Below, in pieces: positions 5,494 through 49,217 of a stretch of 64,000 bases of DNA (the stretch's first letter is position 1; each line of letters opens with the position of its first letter). The DNA is from Bacteroidota bacterium (GTDB lineage: Bacteria > Bacteroidota > Ignavibacteria > UBA10030 > SZUA-254), in NCBI GenBank assembly GCA_033854175.1, contig JAWOKN010000056.1, positions 3,736-67,735 of the forward strand, read 5' to 3'. The position numbers and the translations under genes were made by a program. A model generated the notes under the pieces. It was not told the origin of the DNA and searched no databases. It saw nothing but the letters and a program-made list of their open reading frames with translations.

Positions 5494-7386
5494 TTACATC
5501 ACAAAATGAGACACAACGCCGCCGACAAAAAAGGCCACGACCCAGGTACCGATCCAGATCACCATCCCCTCCCTCCAGCCCCTCTCTTTGAGCATCACCA
5601 TCAGTGAAGCGATGCACGGGACAAAGAGGGTAATGACGATAAGCGAAACGGCAATCTGCATCGGGTTGAGGGACATATGGTACAGACCGGCCGCGCCGAA
5701 ATCTCGGCGGACGACGCCCATAATAAATGCGACAGCGGCCTCCGGGGGCAGCTGGAGCCAGTGGACGACCAGGGGGGTAAGTTCGTGCTCGAGAAGATCC
5801 AGCAAACCGGTAAGCTGTGCGATACCGACCGCGAGTGCGCCCACAAAAAACCAGCCCGAGGCCTCCTTCATGAAATAATATGTCCGGACGGCGGTTTTCC
5901 TGAAGACATTTTCCATACGGGGCAATCTCATCGGCGGGAGATCCAGAAGAAGCGGGGCTGACGAGCCCGGCAGGACCCGGTCGAGCATCGTTCCGATAAG
6001 GACCAGAACGGCAAGGATCACCAGGACATAGACAGCGATCGGGCCCGGGCCCGCACCCGCAAGGAGCGCGGCGATGACGGCCATCTGGGCGGAGCAGGGG
6101 ATGACAAACTGAAGAATTGCGGTGGCAATCGTCTTCTCGCGTTCAGAGCCGAGGAGGCGTGTAGTAATCGTTGCGGAGGTCACGCAGCCGAAGCCGAGAA
6201 TCAGCGGAATGACGGCCCTTCCGTTCAGGCCGAGGTAGGTCAGAATGCGGTCCACCATCGTCGCCAGCCGCGGAAGGTACCCGCTATCCTCCATCAGAGA
6301 AAGAACGATATAGAACGAAATCACGAGCGGAAGCAGAAGAAAAAGAAGATACGTTGTGGTCATGGTCACAACGCCGTAAGGACCGACAAGGAGTGTATAC
6401 CACCATGATGAGGGAGAAATCAGGGTGGCGGTGATCGTGCGGATCCACGGTTCCCAGAGATTGTTACCGATCCGCTGCTCGGTAAAATTCACAACCAGCT
6501 GGGAAACAAACTTTCCGATAAAGAGATAGGCGACATACAATGCGGCGACAAGGATAGGGATCCCCGTGGAGGGCTTCAGGGCCCAGCGGCCGAGCCTGTC
6601 GGAAAACCGTCTTTTCGGGGAAGTATCCTGCATGACCTGGTTCACGAGATAATTCACCCGGTTGCGGCGGCTGATATAAATCTCATCGCGGAGCGTGCCG
6701 GGATTGACGCCGTGGCGCCGGGCGACAAACTGGTCCCCCTCGAGGACCAGCAGGGCCTCGGATTGTGAGCCGACCATGGAAAGGGTCTCATGGAGGTGGC
6801 CGTGGAGTTCCTCGCGCTGGGTCCCCTCGCGGGCGCCCAGGATGGCCTGATCGAGTTTTTCCAGCGTGACGCCGTTCACGGCGGTAACGGGAATGACACT
6901 GACGCCCAAAAAATTCGAAAGCTTCGGAATGTCGATACTGATATGAAAATCCCTCACCTCGTCCATAAAATTCAGCAGCACCGTAATCTTCTTCCCCATA
7001 TCGATCAGCTGCTGGGTCAGAAACAGGTCCCGTTCGAGGTGTGTCGCATCGACAACATTCAGAACAATATCCGCGTCGAGGATGATATCGCGGGCGGCTT
7101 TCTCCTCATCATTAAACGACGAGACCCCATAGATGCCGGGTGTATCGAAGACATCATAATCGCGGTAGGAACCGCAGACAAGTTCGACGGTAGTCCCCGG
7201 ATAATTCGAGACATCGACATTCATACCGGAAAGGGTATTAAAAATGATCGATTTCCCGACATTGGGATTGCCGGCAAGGACAATTTCCACGCGTCCGGTC
7301 TGTTTGCGGGGGGATCTCAGGCCGGGATGCTGGTGTCTATCCGAATGTTCCAGCGGGGGGCGGGATAAAGGATCATCTGGTGTCAT
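5494..7386 (-). CDS. feoB: ferrous iron transporter FeoB
   Basis: N-terminal G-domain (VLAGNPNVGKSIIFNTLSG...NYPGTTVE) followed by a polytopic membrane domain. An alternative GTG start at 7290 would remove a 32-aa N-terminal extension. Confidence 0.9.
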   Translation of the reverse strand: MTPDDPLSRPPLEHSDRHQHPGLRSPRKQTGRVEIVLAGNPNVGKSIIFNTLSGMNVDVSNYPGTTVELVCGSYRDYDVFDTPGIYGVSSFNDEEKAARDIILDADIVLNVVDATHLERDLFLTQQLIDMGKKITVLLNFMDEVRDFHISIDIPKLSNFLGVSVIPVTAVNGVTLEKLDQAILGAREGTQREELHGHLHETLSMVGSQSEALLVLEGDQFVARRHGVNPGTLRDEIYISRRNRVNYLVNQVMQDTSPKRRFSDRLGRWALKPSTGIPILVAALYVAYLFIGKFVSQLVVNFTEQRIGNNLWEPWIRTITATLISPSSWWYTLLVGPYGVVTMTTTYLLFLLLPLVISFYIVLSLMEDSGYLPRLATMVDRILTYLGLNGRAVIPLILGFGCVTSATITTRLLGSEREKTIATAILQFVIPCSAQMAVIAALLAGAGPGPIAVYVLVILAVLVLIGTMLDRVLPGSSAPLLLDLPPMRLPRMENVFRKTAVRTYYFMKEASGWFFVGALAVGIAQLTGLLDLLEHELTPLVVHWLQLPPEAAVAFIMGVVRRDFGAAGLYHMSLNPMQIAVSLIVITLFVPCIASLMVMLKERGWREGMVIWIGTWVVAFFVGGVVSHFVM

Positions 7387-7609
7387 GGGGAACTTCGTCG
7401 ATGACCGTCACGAGAATACTCCGTGCAAGTGTGTGGCCGATAGCGATCTGCTGTCGGTTTTTCTGGAGAACGATGGTTCCGCCCGGGAGGCGTTCCAGGC
7501 ATTTGACGCGCTGCCCTTCATGGATCCCCAGCCGGACGAACTGGGGGTAATAATCGCCGCCGGGGACCGAATGAATCTTCAACAATTGACCGACCTTGGT
7601 TTCGCTCAT
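7373..7609 (-). CDS. feoA: ferrous iron transport protein FeoA
   Basis: FeoA SH3-like domain (VGQLLKIHSVPGG...RLGIHEGQRVKCLERLPGGTIVL...IAIGHTLARSILV). The ORF track starts at 7678 (GTG), which is upstream of the predicted sigma-54 transcription start. ATG 7609 (MSETKVGQ...) or 7645 is more plausible. Confidence 0.8.
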   Translation of the reverse strand: MSETKVGQLLKIHSVPGGDYYPQFVRLGIHEGQRVKCLERLPGGTIVLQKNRQQIAIGHTLARSILVTVIDEVPHDTR

Positions 7610-7686
7610 AGAGACGGGTTTCTTGCGGCTCTTCTTGTCAGTCATGATATCATATCGATTAAATTCAAACATACTCACCTATTATC

Positions 7687-7702
7687 GGCAATTATTGTGC
7701 CA
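7687..7702 (-). promoter_or_regulatory. sigma-54 promoter (TGGCAC-AATAA-TTGCC) driving feoAB
   Basis: Minus-strand sequence CCGATTTGTGGCACAATAATTGCCGATAAT matches the -24/-12 consensus perfectly. It sits between the PLP-enzyme stop (7811) and feoA. Confidence 0.6.
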
Positions 7703-7728
7703 CAAATCGGATAAATCTATCCAATATT
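7703..7728. promoter_or_regulatory. palindromic operator ATCGGATA-N4-TATCCAAT abutting the -24 element (copy A)
   Basis: CAAATCGGATAAATCTATCCAATATTTC is near-identical to the 26-bp perfect palindrome at 45231..45256. In both copies it sits 1-3 bp upstream of TGGCAC. Confidence 0.55.
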
Positions 7729-7810
7729 TCAGATAAGGATTCCGCAAATCCGCAGACGGGGGAGGGAATGCCTATCATCTTTGATAAAACGAAAATCACA
7801 CGGAAACCGA

Positions 7811-25370: not shown

Positions 25371-25764
25371 AAACTTTCTCCTCTGTTGATGGTGAATTAA
25401 CTCTGTAATTTATTGCCGATGACAAACCCCCGACCAGAAAAACCGGAAAGACCTGATGAACTCCGGAACACACTTTCTCAACGGCAAGGTACAACCGATG
25501 ACGCGCAAATTCGATTCAACTTTTATGCCATGGGCCCCTTTGGAGGACTGATTTTAAACTTTACTTCCATGATACGGAATTTCCCCCACTCTCGAAAATG
25601 AGAAATCGGGGAAAGGCTCTTCTTATCTCTGAGAATGAAGATCAGGTGTAAATCCAACTATTGATGTATGTTATGTCAATGCCGGGCGACGGATACCCGC
25701 TACCCACTTCCCGGCGGGAAGACCGCTGAGAAGTCACCGGGAGCGTCAGAAGATCCGCGGTCAT

Positions 25765-36087: not shown

Positions 36088-36332
36088 CCCGCCGCGAACA
36101 GGCTGGACGGGGGTACCGCTCACCCGGGGGTGTACAGGGGTGGGCGGTAGTTATTCGGGGTGGGGGTGATCCGGTAAAACCACCTTTAACCATTTTGTGA
36201 TAAAATCCCCGAATTCATTTCAAATCTGATAACTCCGGGGGAAAAGACGGGCCGGAGAGAAGCCAAATCTCCGTTTTTCAGTATCATCTCAACCCCCTTT
36301 ATGGCACGAGAATTGACGATAACGGAAATGGT

Positions 36333-37982
36333 ATGAAGGCATTCCGTTCGCTCAGTGTGAGGGTATTTGCGGGGTCATTTCTCCTCCTTGTGACCCTCCT
36401 GGGGCTCTATTCCTATTTTGCGATAAAGTTTCACACCGAACAGATGATGGAGATCGTCCTGGGAAACGCAAGCCGCATCAGCGACATCATCAAGAACTCG
36501 ACCCACTACAGCATGCTCCTCAACAGGAAGGAGGACGTCTACCAGACGATCCTCACCATCGGCAAGGAAAAGGGGGTTGAAGGGATACGGATTTACAACA
36601 AGCGGGGAGAAATCATGGCCTCCTCCCGCACCGAAGAAAAACTGCAGATTGTCGACATGCATGCTGAAGCCTGTTACGTCTGCCATGAGAAGGGAAAACC
36701 CCTGGAATCGCTCGCATCGGACAACAGGATGCGGATCTACACCTCCCCGAAGGGGTACAGGGTACTGGGTTTGATCAACCCCATCCACAACGAGCCAAGC
36801 TGTTCGAATGCCGATTGCCATGCTCATCCGCCTGATAAAACCATACTCGGTGTACTCGACGTTCGGATGTCGCTGGAAAACGTCGACACGGCAATCGCCG
36901 AAGCGCACGCCAAGATGATCAGCTGGGCGGTCGGGGGAGTTCTCCTTGCATCGCTCCTCATCTCGGTCCTCCTCTACAGAACCGTGCATCGGCCCGTCAA
37001 GCGGCTCACGCTGGGGACGCATGAAGTCTCCTCCGGCAACCTCGATCTCCGGATACCCATACACTCGAAGGACGAACTGGGGCAGCTTGCCGAATCGTTC
37101 AATTCGATGACGACCTCATTGCGCAACCTCATTGAAGAGAAAAACACCTGGTCGCGCGAGCTGGAGGAGCGGGTCCGTGAAAAAACCGCCGAGTTGAAGC
37201 ACATTCACGAGCAGATCCTGCAGATTGAAAAGATGACATCGCTCGGGAAGCTCGCGGCGACCGTTGCGCACGAACTGAACAACCCCCTGGAAGGGATCCT
37301 GACCTACGCGAAGCTCCTGGCGAAGCAGCTCAGGAAAGCCGAATTCTCTGCGGACCGGTCAAAGGAATTTCTCGAGGAACTCAATCTCATCATCCAGGAA
37401 ACGGACCGGTGCGGAACGATCGTGAAGAACCTCCTCCTCTTTTCCCGGAAGCAGGTCGGCGAATTCGCGCTTGCGCCTGCGCGGCAGATCGTGGAGAAGG
37501 CCCAGCGTCTCGTGGATCACCACTTCCACATCTCCAACGTGAAATTCGAGGCCACGTACGCGCCTGAGGACGTGTCGCTCATGTGCGACGAAATGCAGAT
37601 CCAGCAGGCCTTGATTGCGCTCTTTGTCAACGCGGTTGAAGCCATGCCGGGGGGCGGCACACTGCGCGTCGATGTCTCGCAGCGTTCGAAGGATGACAAC
37701 ATCATCCTCCGCATTTCGGACACCGGTACGGGGATAGCGGAGGAGGATCTCCACAACATCTTCGAACCATTTTTCACAACAAAAAAGGAGGGTCAGGGTG
37801 TCGGCCTCGGCCTCTCGGTTGTCTACGGCATCGTCGTCCGTCACGGCGGCACGATCAGTGTGGAGTCGAGTCTCAACAAGGGAACGGCATTCACGCTGAC
37901 CTTCCCGGCGCTTGAGCGGAGCACCAAGGGAATCCCGGAGCCGGAGGCGAAAAAATCACCCATTGATCCACACTATGCATAA
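36333..37982 (+). CDS. sensor histidine kinase with periplasmic CXXCH (putative c-type heme) sensor domain
   Basis: TM1, then a ~165-aa periplasmic region containing CYVCH and CSNADCH, then TM2 (ISWAVGGVLLASLLISVLLY), a HAMP domain, HisKA (LAATVAHELNNPL) and HATPase_c (DTGTGI...GQGVGLGL). Confidence 0.85.
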   Translation: MKAFRSLSVRVFAGSFLLLVTLLGLYSYFAIKFHTEQMMEIVLGNASRISDIIKNSTHYSMLLNRKEDVYQTILTIGKEKGVEGIRIYNKRGEIMASSRTEEKLQIVDMHAEACYVCHEKGKPLESLASDNRMRIYTSPKGYRVLGLINPIHNEPSCSNADCHAHPPDKTILGVLDVRMSLENVDTAIAEAHAKMISWAVGGVLLASLLISVLLYRTVHRPVKRLTLGTHEVSSGNLDLRIPIHSKDELGQLAESFNSMTTSLRNLIEEKNTWSRELEERVREKTAELKHIHEQILQIEKMTSLGKLAATVAHELNNPLEGILTYAKLLAKQLRKAEFSADRSKEFLEELNLIIQETDRCGTIVKNLLLFSRKQVGEFALAPARQIVEKAQRLVDHHFHISNVKFEATYAPEDVSLMCDEMQIQQALIALFVNAVEAMPGGGTLRVDVSQRSKDDNIILRISDTGTGIAEEDLHNIFEPFFTTKKEGQGVGLGLSVVYGIVVRHGGTISVESSLNKGTAFTLTFPALERSTKGIPEPEAKKSPIDPHYA

Positions 37983-37997
37983 CCTCACAGAAAACGT

Positions 37998-39344
37998 ATG
38001 AACAACGATATATCCATACTCATTGTCGACGATGAAAAGGTCGTCCGCGAATCCCTCTCGAAGTGGTTCAAGGAAGACGACTTCATCGTGGGCGCATCAG
38101 AAAACGCGGCTGAAGCCCTGAAACAGCTCCAGGTGCGGAAATGGGACATCATTCTCCTCGACATCAAAATGCCGGGGATGGACGGGATGGAGTTACAGCA
38201 GCGAATCCGGGAGATCGACCCCGGAGCGACGATCATCTTCATCACGGCGCACGCCTCGGTCGACACGGCGGTCCAGGCCCTGAAGGCGGGGGCGTTCGAT
38301 TACATCGCGAAGCCGATCGACCCCGACTACCTGTCGCATCTGATCCAGAACGCCATCAAGCAGCGGATCCTGACGGGAGAAAACATCCGTCTGAAGGAGC
38401 AGATCACCGAATTCGCGAAAGTCGATGAGATCATCGGCGACTCCCCGCAGATGAAGAAGGTCTTCGAACTGATCGAAACGGTGGCAAAGACCGACACGAC
38501 GGTCATGATCCGGGGCGAAAGCGGAACGGGGAAGGAGCTCATCGCGCGGGCGATTCACGGCAACAGCGAACGGCGGTATTTTCCCATCGTCGCCATCAAC
38601 TGCGGGGCATTGCCGGAGGGAATACTGGAAAGCGAACTCTTCGGTCATGAGCGGGGTGCGTTTACCGGGGCGCAGTACAGGAGAAAGGGAAAAATCGAGC
38701 TGGCCGACGGCGGCACATTATTTCTTGACGAGGTCGGCAACATCGGGATGAAGACCCAGATGGACCTCCTCCGTGTAATCGAGACAAAGCAATTTTCGCG
38801 TGTCGGGGGAAACGAGCTGATCAAGGTGGACTTCAGGACCATCTGCGCGACAAACAGGGATCTCGAGAAGGCCGTTCAGGAGGGCACCTTCCGTGAAGAC
38901 CTCTATTACCGTCTCAACGTCTTCTCCGTCCTCGTCCCCCCCTTGCGCGAGCGGAAGTCGGACATCCCCCTGCTGGCAAATTACTTTTTGAAAAAATACT
39001 CGCGATCGATGGGGAAGCCGATCGTGACCATCTCCTCGGACGCGATGGATCTGATGGTCAAATACAACTGGCCCGGGAACATCCGCGAGCTGGAAAACGC
39101 GATAGAGCGGGCGATGGTGGTCGGAAAGCCCCCCTGCATCAAGGCGGTGGATCTGCCGATACAGTTCTCCGATCTCATTGCGGCACCTTCGCTCGGATCT
39201 CTGGCATCGATGGAAAAAAGCCACATCGCCGAGATCCTCCGGATGAACAACTGGAACATCTCCCGGTCCGCGGAAGTCCTGCAGATCGACCGGGTCACTC
39301 TCTACAACAAGATCGAAAAATATGGCCTGAAAAAGCCGCAGTGA
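37998..39344 (+). CDS. sigma-54-dependent response regulator (NtrC family: REC + AAA+ + HTH)
   Basis: REC domain (ILIVDDE...DIILLDIKMPGMDG), AAA+ domain (GESGTGKELIARAIH, GAFTGA) and a C-terminal Fis-type HTH. Confidence 0.9.
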   Translation: MNNDISILIVDDEKVVRESLSKWFKEDDFIVGASENAAEALKQLQVRKWDIILLDIKMPGMDGMELQQRIREIDPGATIIFITAHASVDTAVQALKAGAFDYIAKPIDPDYLSHLIQNAIKQRILTGENIRLKEQITEFAKVDEIIGDSPQMKKVFELIETVAKTDTTVMIRGESGTGKELIARAIHGNSERRYFPIVAINCGALPEGILESELFGHERGAFTGAQYRRKGKIELADGGTLFLDEVGNIGMKTQMDLLRVIETKQFSRVGGNELIKVDFRTICATNRDLEKAVQEGTFREDLYYRLNVFSVLVPPLRERKSDIPLLANYFLKKYSRSMGKPIVTISSDAMDLMVKYNWPGNIRELENAIERAMVVGKPPCIKAVDLPIQFSDLIAAPSLGSLASMEKSHIAEILRMNNWNISRSAEVLQIDRVTLYNKIEKYGLKKPQ

Positions 39345-39962: not shown

Positions 39963-40097
39963 GATAAAAACGCATCCGTTTTTTGAGGTTTCAGAGTTGA
40001 TTCGGCACATTTTGGCTTATGCCTCAATGGAATGATTCTTGCATTTTACTTTGCGGTTTACTTCAATCTTTTACTTTCTCGAAAGGACATTTGAGCC

Positions 40098-43000
40098 ATG
40101 CCAGATGTAGCGGCAGGAAGAACATTACGGCAGAAGGTCACGCTTGACGGCAACGAAGCGGCTGCCTTCTCCGCGCACAAATTAAACGAAGTCATAGCAA
40201 TCTACCCCATCACCCCCTCCTCCAACATGGGGGAATGGTCGGACGAATGGTCGTCGCTCGGGAGAAAAAACCTCTGGGGGACGGTACCTCTTGTCGTCGA
40301 AATGCAGAGTGAAGGGGGAGCTTCGGGGGCGGTCCACGGGGCGCTGCAGGCCGGCGCGCTCTCGACCACGTTCACATCGTCACAGGGACTCCTCCTGATG
40401 ATCCCGAACATGTTCAAGATCGCGGGCGAACTGACCTCGACCGTCTTCCACATCGCGGCGCGCACGGTAGCGACCCACGCCCTCTCCATATTCGGCGATC
40501 ACAGCGACGTCATGGCGGTCCGGTCGGCGGGCTGGGCGATGCTGGCTTCGAACTCGATACAGGAGATCATGGACTTTGCCCTGATTGCGACGGCGGCGAC
40601 GCTTGAATCGCGTGTTCCGTTTGTCCATTTCTTTGACGGATTCCGGTCATCGCACGAGGTGATGAAAATCGAACAGCTTTGCGAGGACGACTTCCGGGCG
40701 ATGATGGATGACAAGCTCATCTTCCAGCACCGGGCGCGGGGGCTCTCGCCGGAGCATCCCGTCATGCGCGGATCGGCGCAGAACCCCGACGTCTTCTTCC
40801 AGGCCCGGGAAACCGTGAACCCCTACTATCTCGCATGTCCCGCGATCGTCCAGAAAACGATGGACAAATTCGCGCGTGTTGTCGGCCGGAAATACGAGCT
40901 CTTCCAGTACGTCGGTGCGGCCGATGCTGAGCGGATCATCATCATGATGGGATCCGGTGCGGAAACCGCCGAGGAGACGGTGGAGTATTTGAACCGGAAA
41001 GGCGGCAAGGTGGGATTACTCAAGGTCCGGCTCTTCCGGCCCTTCTCCATCGAGCATTTTTTGAAGGCGCTCCCCTCCTCGACCAAGTCGATTGCGGTAC
41101 TCGACCGGACGAAGGAGCCGGGAAGCACAGGGGAACCGCTCTACCAGGACGTTACCACAGCATTAAGCGAAGCCTTTGCCGGCGGCACGTCGCCCCTCAC
41201 GTCGTTCCCGAAAATCATCGGCGGCCGATACGGCCTCTCGTCGAAAGAATTCACACCGGCGATGGTGAAAGCGGTCTACGACGAACTTCAGAAGCCGGCC
41301 CCCAAAAACCACTTCACCGTCGGGATCAAGGATGACGTCACCCACACGAGTCTGTCGTACGACGCGAGTTTCACGACCGAAGCGGACGATGTGATCCGGG
41401 CCATCTTCTACGGTCTCGGAGCGGACGGGACCGTGAGTGCGAACAAAAATTCAATCAAGATCATCGGCGAGGACACCGACAATTTTGCGCAGGGGTATTT
41501 CGTCTACGACTCCAAGAAATCCGGATCGACGACCGTCTCCCATCTGCGTTTCGGACCCCGTCCGATCCACTCGACCTATCTGATCTCGCAGGCAAATTTC
41601 GTCGCATGTCATCAGTGGTTCTTCCTCGAAAAATACGACGTTTTGCAGCCCGTCATCCAGGGCGGAACGTTCCTTCTGAACAGCTCGTTCGGGCCCCAGG
41701 AAGTCTGGGACAACCTGCCGGTCAACATCCAGAAGCACATCATCGAGAAGAAGCTCAAATTCTACGTCATCGACGCCTACAACGTGGCGAAAGAAACAGG
41801 GATGGGCGGAAGGATCAACACCATCATGCAGACATGTTTCTTCGCCATATCCGGTGTACTCCCCCGGGAGGACGCCATCAAGGCGATCAAGCACTCCGTC
41901 GAAAAGACCTACGGCAAGAAGGGGGAGGATGTTGTCAGGCAGAACTTCATGGCCATCGACAAGACGCTGGCCAACCTCTTCGAGGTCAAGGTACCCTCGA
42001 AGGTCACGAGCACGATAACGATGCCCGACACCGTATCACCGAAGGCGCCCAAATACATCCGGGAAGTCACGGCGGAAATCATCGCGGGTTTCGGTGACAG
42101 GCTCCCGGTGAGTTCGATGCCCGTCGACGGGACATTCCCGGTCGGATCGGCGCAGTGGGAAAAGCGAAACATTGCTTTGGAGATTCCGGTATGGGAACCC
42201 GAAATCTGCATACAGTGCAACAAGTGCATCCTGGTCTGTCCGCACGCAACCATACGGACCAAGGTCTTCGATCCGAAACTCCTTGGGGGCGCGCCCGCGA
42301 CATTCAAGTCGATCGACTTCAAGGGGATGGAATACAAGGGTATGAAATACTCCATCCAGGTCGCCCCGGAAGACTGTACGGGGTGCGGGCTCTGTGTGGA
42401 CATCTGTCCTGCGAAGAGCAAGACCATGACCAAGGTCAAGGCCATCAACATGAAACCGCAGCCACCGATACGCGAGGCCGAGCGTGACAACTACGACTAC
42501 TTCCTGTCGCTTCCGGAAGTCGACCGGCGGACCGTCAAGGTTGACAACATCAAAGGATCGCAGTTCCTGCAGCCGCTCTTTGAATACTCCGGGGCATGTT
42601 CGGGCTGTGGCGAGACACCCTACGTAAAACTCGTCAGCCAGCTTTTCGGCGACAGGTGTGTTGTAGCAAATGCGACCGGTTGTTCCTCCATCTACGGCGG
42701 CAACCTCCCGACCACACCATGGACGGCGAACAAGGACGGAAGGGGGCCGGCATGGTCGAATTCACTCTTTGAAGACAATGCGGAATTCGGGCTCGGCATG
42801 CGGCTGACCATTGACAAGCACACCGAGATGGCGCGGGAGCTCGTGAAAAAGCTCTCAACATCGATCGGTGAAAACCTTGCCACGGCGATCCTCAATGCCA
42901 ATCAATCCGACGAAGCCGGCATCCACGAGCAGCGCGAGCGGGTACAGTTCCTGAAGGACAAGCTGCGCGAGCTTGCCACCCCTGATGGCAACAATCTCCT

Positions 43001-43733
43001 CACCATCGCCGACAATCTTGTCAAGCGGAGCGTCTGGATCATGGGTGGGGACGGCTGGGCATATGACATCGGGTACGGCGGGTTGGATCACGTGCTTGCC
43101 TCGGGGCGGAACGTCAACATCCTCGTCCTCGACACGGAAGTCTACTCGAACACAGGCGGTCAGATGTCGAAGGCCACATTCCGGTCGGCGATTGCGAAAT
43201 TCGCGGCCGCAGGAAAACCGACGGCAAAGAAAGACCTGGCGATGCTCGCCATGACCTATGGAAACGTCTACGTGGCGAAGGTCGCGATGGGGAGCAACGA
43301 TCTGCAGACCGTCCGGGCATTTCTGGAAGCGGAAGCCTATGACGGACCCTCGATCATCATCGCCTACAGCCACTGCATCGCGCACGGGATCAACATGACA
43401 CGGGGAATGCAGAACCAGAAGCTTGCGGTTGAGAGCGGTTACTGGCCGATCTTCCGGTACAATCCGATGCTGGAGCGGGAAGGAAAGAACCCGTTCAAGC
43501 TCGACTCCAAGGCACCCCGGATACCACTGCAGGAATTCACGCAGCTGGAGACCCGGTTCAAGATGCTCGAGAAGAGCTATCCCGAACGCGCAAAGCAACT
43601 GAGCGCGCTTGCCCAGAAAGACGTCTATCTCCGCTGGAAAGTCTACGAGCATCTGGCAAAAGAAGACGGCGATGGTGCGGCGCCGGAGGGGCAGCAGACA
43701 AAGAAACCCACAACCATGGGAGAGACGGTCTAG
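40098..43733 (+). CDS. nifJ: pyruvate:ferredoxin (flavodoxin) oxidoreductase, single-polypeptide PFOR
   Basis: 1211 aa with fused alpha/gamma/delta/beta domains. Two ferredoxin clusters ([24 protein letters not shown]) and a TPP domain ([12 protein letters not shown]). GAAAGGA lies 10 nt upstream. Confidence 0.9.
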
Positions 43734-43768
43734 GCCGTCGTACCCCGACTGATCTCAAGGACAGACAC

Positions 43769-44758
43769 ATGGATCTCTCAACCACATACCTCGGACTCAA
43801 ACTCAAAAACCCGATCGTCCCGTCGGCCGGGCCGCTGTCGCGCTCGCTCGACAGCATGAGAAGGCTGGAGGAAGCGGGAGCCTCTGCGATTGTCATTCAC
43901 TCCCTCTTCGAGGAGCAGATCGCGCACGAGACGGCGGAATTGTACCACTACCTCTCGTACGGAACGGAAAGCTTTGCGGAAGCGCTGACCTATTTCCCCG
44001 AGCTGCAGCAATACGACCGGGGGCCGGAAGAATACGTCGAGTTCATCCACACGGCAAAGAACTCGCTGACGATTCCGGTGATCGGCAGTCTCAACGGGAT
44101 CTCGGTGGGCGGTTGGATCAAGTATGCGAGAAAGATCCAGGAGGCGGGAGCAGATGCGATCGAGCTGAACATCTATTACATCCCGACCGATCCCGAGCTG
44201 CGGGGGATCGATGTGGAGGACCGGTATCTCGAGGTCCTCTACGCGGTAAAGGAAACCGTGACAATCCCGGTGGCGGTCAAGCTCAGCCCGTTTTTCAGTT
44301 CGCTCGCGCATTTCGCGAAGCGGCTCGACCATGCGGGGGCGAACGGGCTCGTCCTCTTCAACCGGTTCTACCAGCCCGACATCGACCTCGAATCACTTGA
44401 AGTAACGCCCAACGTCATCCTCAGCACCCCCCATGCACTGCGGCTTCCCATGCGGTGGATAGCGATACTCTCGGGGAACATCAAGGCGAGTCTTGCCGCG
44501 ACGAGCGGGATCCACACGGCGGAGGACGTCCTCAAGATGCTCCTTGTCGGGGCCGATGTGACCATGATGTGTTCGGCCCTCTTAAAAAACGGGCCGTCGT
44601 ACCTGGCCGATGTCCTCCAGAGCGTGGAACGGTGGATGATCGAGCGGGAATACCTCTCCCTGCAGCAGATGAAGGGAAGCATGAACCAGCGGTCCATTGC
44701 AGATCCCTCGGCCTTTGAACGCGCCAATTACATGAAAGCACTCCACAGTTACAAATAA
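43769..44758 (+). CDS. dihydroorotate-dehydrogenase-like TIM-barrel flavoprotein (PyrD/DHPD family)
   Basis: [50 protein letters not shown] is a typical DHOD-family start. The substrate is unknown. Confidence 0.6.
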
Positions 44759-44772
44759 CCAATGGAAAATCT

Positions 44773-45228
44773 ATGAGCATATTTTTTAGCCGTCAATGCG
44801 AGTACGCCCTTCAGGCGGTCATGTACATCGCCCTCAAACCGGAGAACGAGATGAGTTCGATCCGCGAGCTGTCGCGGACGCTCGGCATCCCGTATCATTT
44901 CCTTGCAAAAATCCTCCAGGACCTCACGCGGAAAGGATTGCTGACATCCCTGAAAGGTTCCACCGGCGGGTACATGCTTGCGATGCCGAAGGAAACCATC
45001 ACACCGTTCCACATCGTCGATGCCATTGACGGATCAAGTTTTCTGAACAATTGTCTCCTCGGTTTTTCATCCTGCTCAAGCGAAAAACCGTGCGCGTTGC
45101 ATTCCCAATGGGAGGGTATGCGGGAGAAACTCAATACCATGCTGAAATCGACCAACATCTATGAGGCGGCGCTCAGCATGAAGAAACCGCAATATCTCCA
45201 TAATCAACCCGGGCCAAGCACCACCTGA
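44773..45228 (+). CDS. Rrf2-family transcriptional regulator with three-Cys Fe-S ligand motif (IscR/NsrR/RirA-like)
   Basis: N-terminal winged helix-turn-helix (YALQAVMYIALKPENEMSSIRELSRTLGIPYHFLAKILQDLTRKGLL), then C-x6-C-x5-C (CLLGFSSCSSEKPC). Confidence 0.8.
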   Translation: MSIFFSRQCEYALQAVMYIALKPENEMSSIRELSRTLGIPYHFLAKILQDLTRKGLLTSLKGSTGGYMLAMPKETITPFHIVDAIDGSSFLNNCLLGFSSCSSEKPCALHSQWEGMREKLNTMLKSTNIYEAALSMKKPQYLHNQPGPSTT

Positions 45229-45230
45229 TG

Positions 45231-45256
45231 AATATCGGATAAATCTATCCGATATT
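45231..45256. promoter_or_regulatory. 26-bp perfect palindrome AATATCGGATA-AATC-TATCCGATATT (copy B), abutting a sigma-54 -24 element
   Basis: 11-bp perfect arms. It lies 2 nt after the Rrf2 stop codon and is homologous to the feoAB-promoter copy at 7703..7728. Confidence 0.55.
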
Positions 45257-45271
45257 GGCACAGATGTTGCA
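45256..45271 (+). promoter_or_regulatory. sigma-54 promoter (TGGCAC-AGATG-TTGCA), perfect consensus
   Basis: Exact -24/-12 elements, upstream of the NapH-like/methyltransferase/OsmC gene string. Confidence 0.65.
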
Positions 45272-45522
45272 CTACTAGAGCTGAAGAAATACAAAGGCCG
45301 GTTCTTCCCTCTGTATTAGAGACCTTTTTGATCATCAGAAGAATCCCTTTTTTAAGAATGAGAAATCAGCAGTTTACGGCTATAAGAAGTGACACCGTGC
45401 CCCCTCCTTCCGCTGCATTTGCCGTTGCACCGCAAAATGGACTATCCCCGTATAAAGCCGAAGGCGCCAGGTCCGGGCGTCTGAGTATAAAAAAGCTCTC
45501 ACCCGCGCTCCGCAAACCGAAA

Positions 45523-46578
45523 ATGGGTTACCGGAACGAAACAGGCATACGCCGAATCCTCCTGAGGCTCAGGGAAGATTCACAGTTCCTCCGTTCGGTC
45601 ATACAGACAGCGTTCCTGCTGCTTTGCATCTGGATCGGGATAGAGTTCTATTTATTCGTGAAATGGGGTGCCTCGGGAGGTGTGGAGGCCTATCATATGC
45701 GGCCTCCCGGTGTGGAAGGATTTCTGCCGATCAGCGCTCTGATCAGCCTGAAATATTTCCTGCAGACCGGCATCATCAACAGCGTCCATCCCTCGGGATT
45801 ATTCATCTTCGCAGCGATTCTGGTAATAGGATTTTTCTTTAAAAAAGCCTTCTGCAGCTGGCTCTGTCCGATCGGCACAATAAGTGAATCCCTCTGGACC
45901 TTCGGCCGGAAACTCTTCGGGAAAAATATCGTCCTACCCCGATGGCTCGATTATCCGCTCCGTTCCATCAAATACCTGCTCCTGTTGTTTTTTGCCTACA
46001 TCATCTGGAGCATGAGCATCGATGGCCTCCAGTTTTTCATACAAAGCCCGTACAACCAGGTAGCAGACGTCAAGATGTACTACTTTTTCGCACGGATCAG
46101 CACCTTTGCCCTCTGGACCATCATCATCCTTGCGATCCTGTCGGTCTTCATCAAAAACTTCTGGTGCCGGTATCTCTGTCCCTACGGAGCGCTCCTGGGC
46201 ATCACCGGATTATTCAGTCCGTTAAAGATCACGCGGAATACGACAACATGCATCGACTGCGAACTCTGCACGAAAGTCTGTCCGGCCAGCATCAGGGTCC
46301 ACGCGCTGAAGAAGGTGAGAAGTGATGAATGCATGAGCTGTCTTGAATGCGTGCAGATCTGTCCGGTAAAAAACACACTTGAAGTTCAGCCCCCCGCGGG
46401 GAACGCGAAAGTCCCCGGATGGATCTTCGGGCTTCTCGTCGCCGGGGTATTCGTCGGGATCACCGGTCTTGCGATGCTCGCCGGGCACTGGCAGAATTCA
46501 ATCACAAAGGCAGAATACCTGAACCACTTCCGGAACATCGAATCCCACGTCTATTCCCATGAAGACGCGATCCGATAA
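45523..46578 (+). CDS. NapH/MauN-like membrane polyferredoxin (4Fe-4S binding)
   Basis: CSWLCPIG and CRYLCPYG membrane CxxxCP motifs, plus CIDCELCTKVCP and CMSCLECVQICP ferredoxin motifs. An alternative start is at 45328. Confidence 0.7.
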   Translation: MGYRNETGIRRILLRLREDSQFLRSVIQTAFLLLCIWIGIEFYLFVKWGASGGVEAYHMRPPGVEGFLPISALISLKYFLQTGIINSVHPSGLFIFAAILVIGFFFKKAFCSWLCPIGTISESLWTFGRKLFGKNIVLPRWLDYPLRSIKYLLLLFFAYIIWSMSIDGLQFFIQSPYNQVADVKMYYFFARISTFALWTIIILAILSVFIKNFWCRYLCPYGALLGITGLFSPLKITRNTTTCIDCELCTKVCPASIRVHALKKVRSDECMSCLECVQICPVKNTLEVQPPAGNAKVPGWIFGLLVAGVFVGITGLAMLAGHWQNSITKAEYLNHFRNIESHVYSHEDAIR

Positions 46579-47365
46579 ATCTCTCCGGGCGTTTTACGAC
46601 ACTCTGGCGCCGGACTACGACCTGATGACGGCATTCAACGATCGCGTCGCGAGAGAGGAGGAATTCTTCCGTTTCCTTGCAAAAAAATATCACATTCGCA
46701 CCGCAATCGATGCAGGCTGCGGGACGGGAGTTCACTCGATACTTCTTGCCAGGCTGGGCGTGAAGGTCACTGCTGTGGACATATCGCGGAAAATGATCAC
46801 GGCGACGAGAGCCAATGCACAAAAATTTCACCTCCCGATAAGAGGAGTAGAATCGTCATTCGGTGAAATGGCAAAAAAATTGGATACCGTCGCCGACGCC
46901 CTCTTTTGCATGGGAAATTCCCTGGCGCACATGCTGACGGAGGAGGAATTACTCGACAGCCTGGCAAATTTCCGTGCACTCCTCAGGCCGAAGGGACTTT
47001 TGGTACTCCAGCTGGGAAATTACGACCGAATACTCAAAGAGAGGGCACGTCTGCAGCATGTGAGGGATTCCGGAGGAAAAAGCTTCGTGCGATCGTACTG
47101 CTACCTTCAATCTTTAATATCCTTCAGTATAGATATCAAGACTTCAGCCAGGGGGAGAACATTGAAGAACATCAGAATAAAGCTGAACCCAATCCGCAGC
47201 GGATATCTTCAAAGGCTCCTCATCCGGTCAGGATTCACAGTGATGGCAGAATACGGAAGCCTGCAAAAGGAGCCATTTTCGAAGGGTAGGTCGCGCGATG
47301 TAATCATCCTGGCCAAAAAGGCATACATGCGAATCTTTTCCTCATTTCCTGCATCATATAGATGA
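46559..47365 (+). CDS. class I SAM-dependent methyltransferase
   Basis: AIDAGCGTGVHSILLARLGVKVTAVDIS is SAM-binding motif I. It overlaps the preceding gene by 20 nt. Confidence 0.75.
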   Translation: MKTRSDKSLRAFYDTLAPDYDLMTAFNDRVAREEEFFRFLAKKYHIRTAIDAGCGTGVHSILLARLGVKVTAVDISRKMITATRANAQKFHLPIRGVESSFGEMAKKLDTVADALFCMGNSLAHMLTEEELLDSLANFRALLRPKGLLVLQLGNYDRILKERARLQHVRDSGGKSFVRSYCYLQSLISFSIDIKTSARGRTLKNIRIKLNPIRSGYLQRLLIRSGFTVMAEYGSLQKEPFSKGRSRDVIILAKKAYMRIFSSFPASYR

Positions 47366-47452
47366 ATGGGCAGAGTATTTTCCCGAAACGGCGATGAAGT
47401 GAAAAATCGGGCAATTAGACACCAGACATGAAATGAAACGGAGCAAGTAATC

Positions 47453-47917
47453 ATGAGCACAAAGCAGGCAACAATACATCAGCTTCAGGGAACAACGCTT
47501 CTGGCAAAAAGCGATTCAAATCACTGGGTTGTCATGGACGGGTCTCCGACCTTCGGGGGAAGCAGTGCCGGATCGAGTCCCAAGGAATTACTTCTCATGG
47601 CACTCGGGGGTTGCACTGCCAACGACGTGATCCCGATTCTGAAGAAAAAGCGTGTCCCCCTTCAAAAACTTGAAATACGGGTAACAGGAAACACGCGGGA
47701 CGAACACCCGCAGATCTTCACCAACATCAACATCGAATATATATTTTACGGTAATGGCCTGGACACAGAAGCGCTCGAACGGGCGATAGAACTCTCAACG
47801 ACAAAATACTGTTCAATTTCCGCGATGCTCCGGAGCTCAGTAGAAATAACGCATTCATACCGGCAGGTCGGTGTGCAGGAAGAAGCACCCGCCGAAATGC
47901 TCGTGGAGAACAACTGA
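47453..47917 (+). CDS. OsmC/Ohr family protein (paralog 2)
   Basis: About 55-60% identical to the 25819 gene (TKQATI.QLQG.TL...NHW..MDG...FGGS...SPKELLLMALGGCTA.DVI). Confidence 0.8.
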   Translation: MSTKQATIHQLQGTTLLAKSDSNHWVVMDGSPTFGGSSAGSSPKELLLMALGGCTANDVIPILKKKRVPLQKLEIRVTGNTRDEHPQIFTNINIEYIFYGNGLDTEALERAIELSTTKYCSISAMLRSSVEITHSYRQVGVQEEAPAEMLVENN

Positions 47918-48006
47918 TACCTGAGGGATCTCACAAATCCCTGAGCGTGAGATGGACAACAACCACAGGAATACACCACAAACACAGAACGGAGCTGCAT
48001 CACCCT

Positions 48007-48240
48007 ATGCCTATTTTTGAATACCGCTGCACGCACTGCGATCAAGTCTTCGATATCCTCCACAAAGGCCGTGAAATTACCGCCGACGTCATCTGTCCGT
48101 CGTGCGGATCGACGGAGTACAAAAAACTCATCTCCGCTCCATCGGTTTCCGTGGGGCAGTCATCGGGAACCGATTCCTTTTCCGGGCCTTCATGCGGAGC
48201 CGACGGAGGATGTTGCGGAGGCTCATGCCAGGTAAATTAA
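48007..48240 (+). CDS. FmdB-family zinc-ribbon protein
   Basis: MPIFEYRCTHCDQVFDIL...CPSCGS with a Gly/Cys-rich tail. ATG is at 48007. Confidence 0.65.
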   Translation: MPIFEYRCTHCDQVFDILHKGREITADVICPSCGSTEYKKLISAPSVSVGQSSGTDSFSGPSCGADGGCCGGSCQVN

Positions 48241-48256
48241 CCGGCCAGGAAACAGT

Positions 48257-48634
48257 ATGAGCCCCACACTTCTTATCATCCTATCAGTCATCGCATTATT
48301 CCTGGTTTTCAGAATCCGCCGATGGTTCGTCCAGCGGTCGGTAAAGCAATATACACCGGCGGAGGCGCAGCAATCCCCGAATAAAATATTTCTCGACGTC
48401 CGGACGGGTGCGGAGCGGGCCCAGGGGTCGATCAGGGGATCGATCCACATTCCGCTCCACGAACTCTCCCGTCGGATCAACGAACTGCGGCCACACATGA
48501 ACCGAGAAATCATCTGTTACTGTCAATCGGGGAGCAGAAGCATCGCAGCCTCGTCGATTCTCCAGCGTCACGGATACACTGTGGCAAACCTCAAAGGAGG
48601 GATAGCCGAATGGAATTTCCAAAACCTCCGGTAA
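48257..48634 (+). CDS. rhodanese-domain sulfurtransferase with N-terminal TM helix
   Basis: The CQSGSRS active-site loop follows an N-terminal hydrophobic helix. Confidence 0.8.
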   Translation: MSPTLLIILSVIALFLVFRIRRWFVQRSVKQYTPAEAQQSPNKIFLDVRTGAERAQGSIRGSIHIPLHELSRRINELRPHMNREIICYCQSGSRSIAASSILQRHGYTVANLKGGIAEWNFQNLR

Positions 48635-48837
48635 TTTTAATAAAATCAGCCGCCCCGATCGTCGGCGGGATCATGGGTTTCGCGTACTACAAATTTGTCG
48701 GATGCACAACGGGAGCCTGTCCGATAACGGGTAACCCGTTTATCAGCACACTCTATGGGGCGCTTCTCGGGTATCTCATCGGATCCCAGTTTACCAGAAC
48801 ATCACCACCGGACAGCAAACAAACGGACACTTTATGA
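48610..48837 (+). CDS. DUF2892-like (YgaP transmembrane-domain-like) small membrane protein
   Basis: PIVGGIMGFAYYKFVGCTTGACPITGNPF has a CP-containing motif, as in the rhodanese-associated YgaP C-terminal domain. The start is ambiguous (48610 or 48673). Confidence 0.4.
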   Translation: MEFPKPPVILIKSAAPIVGGIMGFAYYKFVGCTTGACPITGNPFISTLYGALLGYLIGSQFTRTSPPDSKQTDTL

Positions 48838-49217
48838 ACTACGGAATCTCAAAAACGGTCCACCTGTCGTACGACCAGGCAGTTGCAAAAGTAACTGAAA
48901 CCTTACAGAAGGAAGGTTTTGGCATCCTCACATCGATCGACGTCAAAGAAACCCTCAAAAAGAAACTGAACGTTGATTTCAAGCGGTACGTCATCCTGGG
49001 AGCCTGCAACCCGCACTTTGCCCATCAGACCCTTCAGATGGAAGAAAACATCGGGCTACTCCTCCCCTGCAACGTCATCGTGTACGAGAAGGACAATGCC
49101 ACAGTTGTGGCTGCATTCAATCCGATGGCCATGACGGAGCTGATCGGGAACCGGTCGCTCGAAAAAATTGCCCGGGAGGTAGCCGACCGGCTTGAGCGGG
49201 CAATTAACGCCGTATAA
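48834..49217 (+). CDS. DUF302 domain protein
   Basis: DFKRYVILGACNPHFAHQTL...LLLPCNVIVYEKDNATVVAAFNP is the typical DUF302 core. Confidence 0.75.
   Translation: MNYGISKTVHLSYDQAVAKVTETLQKEGFGILTSIDVKETLKKKLNVDFKRYVILGACNPHFAHQTLQMEENIGLLLPCNVIVYEKDNATVVAAFNPMAMTELIGNRSLEKIAREVADRLERAINAV

What the first reader, a model, noticed from the sequence alone, without database searches (positions are those of the whole stretch)
45231..49217. Second copy of the palindrome plus sigma-54 module directly after an Rrf2 Fe-S regulator gene, heading a NapH-like/methyltransferase/OsmC/rhodanese/DUF302 gene string
The 26-bp perfect palindrome AATATCGGATAAATCTATCCGATATT shares its last T with a consensus-perfect TGGCAC-AGATG-TTGCA. 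About 45 bp are conserved with the feoAB promoter, including the operator to -24 spacing. A conserved composite element occurring twice in 64 kb is unlikely by chance; I expect about 0.1 chance near-matches for the 20-bp core. The adjacent Rrf2 regulator has three Cys like the iron/Fe-S-sensing IscR/RirA class. This makes it a candidate cognate repressor linking Fe-S or iron status to sigma-54 promoters of an iron importer and of a redox and sulfur-handling operon. A degenerate 16/20 copy of the motif also lies inside the methyltransferase start (46567-46586).
Basis: partly seen in the sequence, partly recalled or inferred. Interest (0 to 1): 0.75.

Follow-up and report, generated by a model that had tools for sequence, protein, structure and literature searches.

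The report
Rrf2 operator fused to sigma-54 promoters
A 26-base inverted repeat that sits flush against two sigma-54 promoters (one for the iron importer feoAB, one for a redox/sulfur stress operon) is very probably the binding site of the iron-sulfur regulator encoded right next to it. That would be an unusual case of an Rrf2-type repressor gating enhancer-dependent promoters.

Summary
At 45231-45256 there are two perfect 11-nt arms around a 4-nt spacer, and the last T starts TGGCAC-N5-TTGCA. The only other copy in 64 kb (7703-7728) abuts a minus-strand TGGCAC-N5-TTGCC heading feoAB.

Palindrome plus -24/-12 element is conserved in 7 napH-type and 4 feoAB promoters of relatives, while the flanks diverge.

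A scan of public genomes for the perfect core gave 119 loci. Nine had an Rrf2 gene directly beside the palindrome, and no Rrf2 gene lay elsewhere in those loci. All nine share the window protein's recognition helix (x-K-I-L-Q/K) and its C-X6-C-X5-C-X2-H ligand set. Most sit by N-oxide genes: norCB, nirK, nrfHA, hcp, RIC.

The protein passes only the Rrf2 superfamily model. It falls below the curated cut-offs for IscR, NsrR, RirA and CymR.

The sigma-54 reading is backed by enrichment of the promoter motif, a GAFTGA activator in the window, and a second motif (TYTCA-N4-TGAKA) mostly 66-78 bp upstream of such promoters.

Best reading: an uncharacterised Fe-S Rrf2 repressor occupying -26 to -52. 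At feoAB that places it between the enhancer-like site and the -24 element. Whether the signal is iron/Fe-S supply or NO is unresolved. The third, 16/20 copy is not conserved. New variant of a known kind; all computational.

The parts
45231..45256 (.). Operator copy 2: AATATCGGATA-AATC-TATCCGATATT (11-4-11 inverted repeat). It spans about -51 to -26 of the napH-type promoter.
   Evidence: Conserved in L002, L144, L134, L136, L145 and L007.
45256..45271 (+). Sigma-54-type promoter TGGCAC-AGATG-TTGCA (-24/-12). Predicted transcription start near 45282.
   Evidence: TGGCA and TTG are invariant in 11 aligned promoters. No sigma-70-like promoter or terminator nearby.
44773..45228 (+). Rrf2-family regulator of 151 aa. 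Candidate Fe-S ligands are C94, C101, C107 and H110 (plus C9/E10). Recognition helix is F-L-A-K-I-L-Q.
   Evidence: Pfam PF02082 at 1.5e-30. Passes TIGR00738 only. Aligns with the IscR ligand positions. Ligands and helix residues K46/Q49 are invariant in 121 sequences.
45358..46578 (+). First gene of the controlled operon: a membrane NapH/NosR-like polyferredoxin (Fer4_5).
   Evidence: below the NapH cut-off, so domain-level only. The Rrf2-then-Fer4_5 pairing is conserved in L002, L007, L136, L138, L140, L144, L145 and L087.
46559..47365 (+). SAM-dependent methyltransferase.
47453..47917 (+). OsmC-family protein.
47947..48240 (+). Zn-ribbon protein (the start codon may lie further in).
48257..48634 (+). 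Rhodanese-domain sulfurtransferase.
48610..48837 (+). DUF6132 small membrane protein.
48834..49217 (+). DUF302 protein, last gene of the string.
7703..7728 (.). Operator copy 1 (CAAATCGGATAAATCTATCCAATATT on the + strand). It spans about -52 to -27 of the feoAB promoter.
   Evidence: Conserved at feoAB in L084, L141 and L142.
7687..7702 (-). Sigma-54-type promoter TGGCAC-AATAA-TTGCC. Predicted transcription start near 7676.
   Evidence: No sigma-70-like promoter in this intergenic region.
7373..7645 (-). feoA.
   Evidence: Pfam FeoA.
5494..7386 (-). feoB.
   Evidence: Pfam FeoB_N, Gate and FeoB_C.
7773..7786 (.). Enhancer-like site TATCA-N4-TGATA, centred 78 bp upstream of the feoA TGG. The Rrf2 operator lies between it and the -24 element.
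   Evidence: The same motif sits at 66-78 bp in the feoAB promoters of L141, L142 and L084 (108 bp in L143), and at other sigma-54-like promoters.
36333..39344 (+). Histidine kinase plus NtrC-type sigma-54 activator (GAFTGA at residue 220). Candidate activator of these promoters; this is inference only.
   Evidence: Its own promoter TGGCACGAGAATTGA (36302) has the enhancer-like site 78 bp upstream.
40098..44758 (+). PFOR and a dihydroorotate-dehydrogenase-like gene. The gaps around them are 35 and 14 nt, so Rrf2 is probably co-transcribed with them.
   Evidence: Synteny is kept in L002, L004, L007, L136, L140, L144 and L145.

Best explanation
The inverted repeat is the operator of the Rrf2-family iron-sulfur regulator encoded immediately upstream (44773-45228). 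This protein belongs to an uncharacterised Rrf2 subfamily, defined by a recognition helix x-K-I-L-Q, the ligand set C-X6-C-X5-C-X2-H, and an N-terminal C-E pair. Its consensus site is AATATCGGATA-N4-TATCCGATATT.

In this Ignavibacteria-like lineage the operator has been placed flush against the -24 element of two sigma-54 promoters, covering about -26 to -52. The dimer, probably in its cluster-bearing form, would sit on the upstream edge of the holoenzyme footprint. At feoAB it would also sit inside the short loop between an enhancer-like site (centre about -104) and the core promoter. It should therefore block closed-complex formation or activator contact.

Loss or modification of the cluster (iron or Fe-S shortage, NO or oxidants) would release the protein. 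The enhancer-binding activator could then fire. This would induce the Fe(II) importer feoAB and the NapH-like/methyltransferase/OsmC/rhodanese/DUF302 operon.

Shown by computation: the operator-subfamily association, conservation of the composite, and the sigma-54-type architecture. Inferred: that this copy of the protein binds, that the effect is repression, which cluster form binds, what the signal is, and which activator acts.
For: 1. The palindrome occurs only twice in 64 kb, both times abutting a sigma-54-type element.

2. Phylogenetic footprint. Across 7 napH-type and 4 feoAB promoters from relatives (Rrf2 69-100% identical, FeoB 69-100% identical; the L084 FeoB is taken to be P0190, on the same contig), only the operator core, TGGCA and TTG are invariant or nearly so. 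The flanks are unrelated.

3. Independent association. A genome-wide scan for the perfect core gave 119 loci, mostly scattered taxa. In 9 of them an Rrf2 gene lies within about 0-750 bp of the palindrome, and no Rrf2 gene lies elsewhere in those ~880 kb. My rough expectation is about 0.1 such adjacencies by chance.

4. The 8 full-length proteins among these carry the same Cys/His ligand pattern as the window protein, and all 9 carry the same recognition helix, x-K-I-L-Q (K-I-L-K in L053). E. coli IscR and NsrR do not carry this helix. K46, Q49, C9, E10, C94, C101, C107 and H110 are invariant in 121 homologues.

5. In other genomes the operator overlaps the -10/start region of sigma-70-type promoters, or lies 8-40 nt before start codons of the Rrf2 gene or its target (L140 9975, L087 1757, L059, L038, L041, L053). 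These are repressor positions.

6. The order Rrf2, operator, NapH-like gene recurs even in the distant L087.

7. Sigma-54 reality. TGGCAY-N5-TTGM occurs 6 times against 0.54 expected. Five copies are correctly oriented upstream of genes, including alanine and glutamate dehydrogenase. The window encodes a GAFTGA activator. An enhancer-like motif occurs 7 times against 0.41 expected, 66-98 bp upstream of such promoters in the window and mostly 66-78 bp in the relatives.

8. Operator-to-TGGCA spacing varies from 1 to 4 nt. That fits steric occlusion better than a face-specific contact.

9. Proteins bound inside sigma-54 enhancer loops are known to quench activation (PMC4740811, abstract).
Against: - There is no experimental datum for any member of this subfamily.
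- The whole genome could not be scanned. A paralogue with the same recognition helix could be the true or an additional binder.
- rpoN itself is not in the window.
- The napH-type promoter has no clear enhancer-like site at the usual distance. There is only a TCA-N3-TGA inside the Rrf2 coding sequence (45172-45184).
- In L002 and L004 a copy of the operator lies about 145 bp upstream of the kinase/activator promoter. Occlusion does not explain that position.
- One relative (L143) keeps the sigma-54 feoAB promoter without an operator.
- Some Rrf2 proteins (IscR at type 2 sites) also activate, so the sign of regulation is not proven.
Confidence: 0.65

Rival explanations
1. The operator is real, but it is bound by a different Rrf2 paralogue of the same subfamily encoded elsewhere in the genome (for example one beside nor/nir genes). 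The neighbouring Rrf2 would then be a bystander or only a co-binder.
For: Subfamily members in other genomes with nearly the same recognition helix sit beside N-oxide genes with perfect operators. Cross-recognition is therefore plausible. Only 64 kb of this genome is visible.
Against: The operator lies 2 nt after this gene's stop codon. The Rrf2-then-operator-then-NapH-like order is kept in at least 8 lineages. Only one Rrf2 gene is detected in the window.
Confidence: 0.12
2. The Rrf2 protein binds here but acts positively or architecturally. It would bend the DNA like IHF to help the activator reach sigma-54, rather than repress.
For: The site lies where IHF-type bending factors act at some sigma-54 promoters (general knowledge). 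Some Rrf2 proteins activate (IscR at suf; general knowledge).
Against: The site abuts the -24 element, with 1-4 nt variable spacing. In other genomes the same operator overlaps the -10/start region or sits just before start codons, which is typical of repression. Proteins bound inside short enhancer loops tend to quench (PMC4740811).
Confidence: 0.1
3. The palindrome is the upstream activating sequence of the NtrC-type enhancer-binding protein encoded at 37998-39344.
For: It is always next to sigma-54-type promoters in this lineage. In L002 and L004 a copy lies about 135-150 bp upstream of the kinase/activator operon's own promoter, a classical enhancer distance.
Against: A site ending 1-4 nt from TGGCA leaves no room for looping. 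A different motif (TYTCA-N4-TGAKA) occupies the classical 66-78 bp position at the kinase, PFOR, alaDH and feoAB promoters. Perfect palindromes elsewhere lie beside Rrf2 genes at sigma-70-type promoters, with no activator gene called in the parts of those loci examined.
Confidence: 0.05
4. The palindrome works at the RNA level, as a 3' hairpin, terminator or stabiliser of the upstream transcript. Alternatively it is the site of an unrelated metal regulator such as Fur.
For: It folds into an 11-bp hairpin (-21.4 kcal/mol for the 86-nt stretch, z = -3.8). It follows a stop codon. feoAB is Fur-controlled in many bacteria (general knowledge).
Against: There is no U-tract and no terminator call. 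Substitutions among orthologous sites are not compensatory: L136 has ATCAGATA/TGTCCGAT and L002 has ATCGGATT/TATCCGAA. In other genomes it lies upstream of genes. No Fur gene was found among the ORFs scanned. There is no Rfam match.
Confidence: 0.04

Closest known systems
NsrR (NO-sensing [4Fe-4S] Rrf2 repressor)
   Same: Same superfamily, with three C-terminal Cys and an acidic residue (E10) aligned with the NsrR Asp8 position. It is a long AT-flanked inverted-repeat operator. Subfamily relatives are encoded beside norCB, nirK, nrfHA, hcp, RIC and flavodiiron genes.
   Different: It scores 50.8 bits against the NsrR cut-off of 182. The recognition helix differs. The operator ATCGGATA-N4-TATCCGAT is unlike gATGyAT-N5-ATrCATc (PMC1274295). 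Here it acts at sigma-54 promoters, and the visible targets are feoAB and a sulfur/redox operon.
IscR (Fe-S status sensor)
   Same: It is the closest solved structure (E = 2e-9). All four cluster ligands (C92, C98, C104, H107) have aligned equivalents (C94, C101, C107, H110).
   Different: It scores 71 bits against the IscR cut-off of 207.55. There are no isc or suf genes nearby. The operator is unlike the IscR type 1 and type 2 motifs (recalled, not re-read).
RirA (Fe-S Rrf2 repressor of iron uptake in alpha-proteobacteria)
   Same: The predicted logic is the same: a cluster-bearing Rrf2 protein represses an iron importer when iron/Fe-S is sufficient.
   Different: It scores 59.3 bits against the RirA cut-off of 193. 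The lineage and operator are different. The targets here are sigma-54 promoters.
RsrR of Streptomyces venezuelae (redox-sensing [2Fe-2S] Rrf2)
   Same: The wHTH region is similar (LAKQMQAL against LAKILQDL). It binds 11-3-11 inverted repeats and autoregulates by occluding RNA polymerase (PMC5015018).
   Different: Its cluster ligands differ (recalled). Only the HTH region matches (residues 32-89). The actinobacterial loci that carry look-alike palindromes had no Rrf2 gene within 8 kb.
Quenching-type repression at sigma-54 enhancers, and NorR-type NO control through sigma-54
   Same: A protein bound between enhancer and core promoter lowers activator-dependent output (PMC4740811). NO detoxification genes are often sigma-54/NorR dependent (PMC1274295).
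   Different: Those cases use synthetic TetR/LacI-type sites, or sense NO in the activator itself. Here a separate Fe-S repressor would add a second input at a fixed position abutting -24.

Membership tests
Rrf2 superfamily (PF02082 / TIGR00738) | N-terminal winged helix-turn-helix plus dimerisation helix, scoring above the curated cut-off. | tested here: met
   PF02082 at 106.5 bits (cut-off 30). TIGR00738 at 108.5 bits (cut-off 73.3).
Rrf2 superfamily, Fe-S-binding branch | Three spaced Cys in the C-terminal half, plus a fourth ligand. | tested here: met
   C94-X6-C101-X5-C107-X2-H110 aligns with IscR positions 92/98/104/107. These residues are invariant in 121 homologues. Actual cluster binding cannot be tested here.
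IscR | Scores above the equivalog cut-off (TIGR02010 / NF008110). | tested here: not met
   71.0 bits against 207.55, and 50.5 bits against 275.
IscR | Encoded with, and controlling, isc/suf Fe-S assembly genes. | tested here: not met
   No isc or suf genes were found among the annotated ORFs of the window or of the related loci.
NsrR | Scores above the equivalog cut-off (NF008240). | tested here: not met
   50.8 bits against 182.
NsrR | Operator gATGyAT-N5-ATrCATc. | tested here: not met
   The operator here is ATCGGATA-N4-TATCCGAT. The NsrR consensus is taken from PMC1274295.
NsrR | Regulon of NO-detoxification and denitrification genes. | tested here: inconclusive
   This is true for subfamily relatives. 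In the window the targets are feoAB and a NapH-like/OsmC/rhodanese operon.
RirA | Scores above the equivalog cut-off (NF008886). | tested here: not met
   59.3 bits against 193.
Sigma-54-dependent promoter | GG at -24 and GC at -12, in TGGCAC-N5-TTGCW. | tested here: met
   45256-45271 matches exactly. 7702-7687 has 1 mismatch. TGGCA and TTG are invariant in 11 orthologous promoters, although -12 is TTGA or TTGT in several.
Sigma-54-dependent promoter | The genome encodes sigma-54 and a GAFTGA enhancer-binding protein. | tested here: inconclusive
   An activator with a Sigma54_activat domain and GAFTGA is present at 37998-39344. rpoN is not in the window and could not be looked up.
Sigma-54-dependent promoter | An upstream activator site at looping distance. 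| tested here: inconclusive
   At feoAB a candidate site lies 78 bp upstream, conserved in relatives. At the napH-type promoter no clear site was found.
Sigma-54-dependent promoter | Transcription start about 12 nt downstream of GC, and dependence on rpoN. | not testable with these tools
   This needs 5' end mapping and genetics.

The most novel reading that the evidence does not exclude
An uncharacterised Rrf2 subfamily of the Bacteroidota/Ignavibacteria group has its own operator, ATCGGATA-N4-TATCCGAT, and an IscR-like ligand set plus a conserved N-terminal Cys-Glu pair. It would be that group's Fe-S-based sensor of N-oxide or iron stress. In one lineage it has been wired directly onto sigma-54 promoters at -26 to -52. 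This makes 'two-key' promoters that need both an active enhancer-binding protein and loss of the Fe-S repressor. Ferrous iron import would be one of the outputs. As far as I could find, this would be the first Rrf2-family regulator shown to gate sigma-54 promoters.
Probability: 0.5. Interest if true: 0.6.

Novelty: new variant of a known kind. Interest (0 to 1): 0.5.

Why it matters
Rrf2 regulators (IscR, NsrR, RirA, RsrR) are the main Fe-S-based transcription sensors. All the well-studied ones act at sigma-70-type promoters.

If this reading is right, three things follow.
1. It defines a new subfamily with a distinct and easily searchable operator. That operator can be used to reconstruct N-oxide and iron stress regulons across uncultured Bacteroidota and Ignavibacteria.
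2. It offers a natural example of a repressor placed between an enhancer and the -24 element of sigma-54 promoters. So far this logic has been explored mostly with synthetic constructs.
3. It shows ferrous iron uptake under sigma-54 control.

The two short sites, one small protein and one activator make a compact system to reconstitute in vitro or in E. coli.

Tried and rejected
- Plasmid collection: a megablast search with the locus found nothing.
It is therefore a sample, not a census.
- Metagenome scan: the composite pattern gave only 9 loci. Three were informative (L127/L128, which equal L084, and L134). L133 was dubious and five were chance hits in GC-rich, apparently coding sequence.
- Third, internal copy at 46570-46589: rejected as a site. 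It scores below 12 bits and is not conserved.
- Actinobacterial look-alike palindromes: I tested whether they belong to an RsrR-type Rrf2. No Rrf2 gene lies within 8 kb, and the RsrR paper's text does not spell out its motif.
- Terminator, riboswitch or sRNA: no Rfam hit and no terminator call.
- Fur gene near feoAB: none was found among the ORFs scanned.
- Literature on Rrf2 at sigma-54 promoters, or on Rrf2 in Ignavibacteria: only a passing mention of a BadM/Rrf2 gene beside the nos cluster of Melioribacter roseus. PMC3162934 held nothing on these phyla.

Full report
**What is in the sequence.**
Positions 45231-45256 read AATATCGGATAAATCTATCCGATATT. That is two perfect 11-nt arms around the spacer AATC, so it is not a perfect 26-mer (2 mismatches to its own reverse complement). 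It starts 2 nt after the stop codon of a 151-aa Rrf2 gene (44773-45228). Its last T is the first base of TGGCAC-AGATG-TTGCA (45256-45271).

The only other copy in the window is 7703-7728, with 3 mismatches and none expected in shuffles. It abuts TGGCAC-AATAA-TTGCC on the minus strand (7702-7687), 31 nt upstream of feoA (7645-7373) and feoB (7386-5494). The two modules align over about 42 nt at roughly 76%. The feoAB copy has one extra base between operator and TGGCAC.

Downstream of 45271 lie eight genes: a NapH-like Fer4_5 protein, a methyltransferase, OsmC, a Zn-ribbon protein, a rhodanese, DUF6132 and DUF302. Upstream, PFOR and a dihydroorotate-dehydrogenase-like gene are separated from Rrf2 by 35 and 14 nt.

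The contig belongs to MAG GCA_037917075.1. The closest homologues are labelled Bacteroidota, Ignavibacteriales or Ignavibacteriae.

**Is it more than chance, and is it a dispersed repeat?**
A weight matrix built from ten sites finds only the two copies in the window at a lax 12-bit threshold. The null gives 0.1 and true sites score at least 23.5 bits. In about 167 kb of related loci, every site of at least 14 bits lies in an intergenic, promoter-proximal position.

The 16/20 look-alike at 46570-46589 fails the matrix, and its right half is lost in L002 and L136. I treat it as coding sequence.

**Conservation.**
I retrieved orthologous loci through Rrf2 and FeoB homologues and through pattern scans. 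This gave seven napH-type promoters (window, L002/L003, L144, L134, L136/L137, L145, L007) and four feoAB promoters (window, L141, L084=L127/L128, L142).

In the alignment, the invariant or nearly invariant columns are those of the operator core (T.GGA...T.TCCG), TGGCA and TTG. The flanks are unrelated.

The gap between the operator core and TGGCA varies from 1 to 4 nt. Substitutions in the two arms are not compensatory, which argues against an RNA hairpin function.

More distant orthologues (L138, L140; Rrf2 61-64% identical) keep a degenerate TCAGA-N8-TCCGA between Rrf2 and the NapH-like gene. They also have sigma-70-type TTGACA-N17-TAAT.T promoters in front of Rrf2. In L140 an operator overlaps the -10 region and start site.

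L143 keeps a sigma-54-type feoAB promoter without an operator.

**Who binds it?**

An HMM built from 120 homologues of the window Rrf2 found an Rrf2 gene in nine of these loci: L087, L030, L059, L038, L109, L095, L041, L111 and L053. Each lies directly beside the palindrome, and none lies elsewhere in those ~880 kb. My rough estimate is about 0.1 such adjacencies by chance.

In these genomes the palindrome lies in one of two places. It is 8-77 nt upstream of the Rrf2 start (L087, L030, L038, L059, L095, L111). Or it lies between the Rrf2 stop and the next gene, as in the window (L041, L053).

The proteins share features with the window protein that E. coli IscR and NsrR lack. These are the recognition helix x-K-I-L-Q (K-I-L-K in L053), the ligand pattern C-X6-C-X5-C-X2-H (the first spacing is longer in L053), and in most of them an N-terminal C-E pair. 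In 121 close homologues K46, Q49, C9, E10, C94, C101, C107 and H110 are invariant.

The closest solved structure is E. coli IscR, and the four IscR cluster ligands align with C94/C101/C107/H110. The RsrR wHTH is also similar.

The protein passes only the Rrf2 superfamily model. It falls far below the curated cut-offs for IscR, the Xanthomonas-type SUF regulator, RirA, NsrR and CymR. Its operator differs from the published NsrR consensus (PMC1274295). This is therefore an uncharacterised subfamily with its own operator.

**What do relatives control?**
The palindrome-linked Rrf2 genes sit beside the following genes:
- L041: norC/norB and RIC (ScdA).
- L109: norCB and a copper nitrite reductase.
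- L030: nrfHA and hcp.
- L095: RIC and a hemerythrin.
- L038: nrdD.
- L087: a NapH-like gene plus SCO1/PCuAC. A second operator lies between Rrf2 and the NapH-like gene.
- L059: SCO1.
- L053: a flavodiiron protein.

The Rrf2, NapH-like and methyltransferase trio is followed by RIC, cytochromes or NOR-like COX1 genes in L138 and L140, and by a hemerythrin in L136 and L144. This points to nitrosative or Fe-S damage as the ancestral theme. In the window lineage the visible outputs are iron import and sulfur/redox functions.

**Are the promoters really sigma-54 type?**
TGGCAY-N5-TTGM occurs six times in the window against 0.54 expected. Five copies are correctly oriented upstream of genes: feoA, alanine dehydrogenase, glutamate dehydrogenase, the kinase/activator operon and the NapH-like gene.

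The window encodes an NtrC-type activator with GAFTGA. No sigma-70-type promoter or terminator is called in either intergenic region, and there is no Rfam match.

A second motif, TYTCA-N4-TGAKA, occurs seven times against 0.41 expected. It lies at 66-98 bp (centre to TGG) upstream of sigma-54-like promoters in the window. In relatives it lies at 58-78 bp, with one at 108 bp in L143. The feoAB promoters carry it at 78, 78, 66 and 78 bp.

So at feoAB the order is: enhancer-like site, Rrf2 operator (-52 to -27), then -24/-12. rpoN itself is not in the window.

**Mechanism.**
Most likely the cluster-bearing Rrf2 dimer occupies -26 to -52. From there it would prevent holoenzyme binding or activator contact. 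Cluster loss would relieve this, and the promoters would then still need their activator.

Four things support repression:
- Repressor-type operator positions in other genomes.
- The variable 1-4 nt spacing.
- The location inside a short enhancer loop (PMC4740811 for the principle).
- Family precedent: NsrR, RirA and RsrR are repressors, and RsrR occludes RNA polymerase (PMC5015018).

Several points remain inferred: which form of the protein binds, what the signal is, the sign of the effect, and the identity of the activator.

Two observations are left unexplained. An operator copy lies about 145 bp upstream of the kinase/activator promoter in L002 and L004. The napH-type promoter has no clear enhancer-like site.

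**Verdict.**
It is a new variant of known kinds: an Rrf2 operator/repressor combined with a sigma-54 promoter. It is of moderate interest and entirely computational so far.

Noticed in passing
window 28853, 36218, 39953, 19785, 19816, 7773; also L002, L004, L007, L136, L141, L142, L084, L140, L143: A 14-bp inverted repeat TYTCA-N4-TGAKA (7 copies against 0.41 expected) lies 66-98 bp upstream of sigma-54-like promoters in the window: the kinase/activator operon, PFOR, alanine dehydrogenase, a HypC-like gene and feoAB. In relatives it lies at 58-78 bp (108 bp in L143). It is probably the enhancer of an NtrC-type activator, and distances of 68 or 78 bp recur.
   Followed up: partly
window 19711-19725 (-), 25516-25530 (-), 40028-40042 (+): Sigma-54-like promoters precede alanine dehydrogenase, glutamate dehydrogenase and (as TGGAAT-N5-TTGC) the PFOR-Rrf2 operon. 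Central carbon and nitrogen genes in this lineage therefore appear to depend on sigma-54.
   Followed up: partly
window 45172-45184: Inside the Rrf2 coding sequence (peptide ALSMKK), CTCAGCATGAAGA forms TCA-N3-TGA centred 78 bp before the napH TGG. That is the usual enhancer distance, but the spacing is one base short. Coding constraint makes it ambiguous.
   Followed up: no
L002 1370-1389; L004-L006 1362-1381; window 36087-36200: Relatives carry an operator copy about 135-150 bp upstream of the kinase/activator promoter. In the window that stretch is instead GC-rich sequence with no operator copy.
   Followed up: partly
L001 (contig JBAIWV010000292) and L137 (contig JBAIWV010000274): The same MAG, GCA_037917075.1, holds two versions of the PFOR/DHOD-like/Rrf2 locus (Rrf2 78% identical). 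The second carries the L136-type operator variant. This suggests a mixed bin or two strains.
   Followed up: no
L013, L077, L098, L114 (L082 less clearly) (Bacteroidaceae gut MAGs): The same 20-bp palindrome is embedded in a longer repeated unit (…caggggtcagagacccct…gcatc-palindrome-gagacgg), present two or three times per contig in L013 and L077. This is an unrelated dispersed repeat that happens to share the core.
   Followed up: no
L042, L063, L074, L085, L102 (Streptomyces, Rhodococcus): Pairs of CGGATAG-N2-CTATCCG-type sites lie close together, with no Rrf2 gene within the 8-kb pieces. They probably belong to another regulator with a look-alike operator.
   Followed up: partly
L138 15456-15481: In a distant relative, an operator variant (ACAGATAAATCTATCTGA) is followed by TGGTAC-N5-TTGTG. 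It lies upstream of a Fer4_20/Pyr_redox_2 gene and Rieske/cytochrome b genes. It may be a further regulon member with a sigma-54-like element.
   Followed up: no
window 46570-46589: A 16/20 match to the operator lies at the NapH-like stop / methyltransferase start. It is rare by chance, but it is not conserved in L002 or L136 and scores below the matrix threshold.
   Followed up: yes
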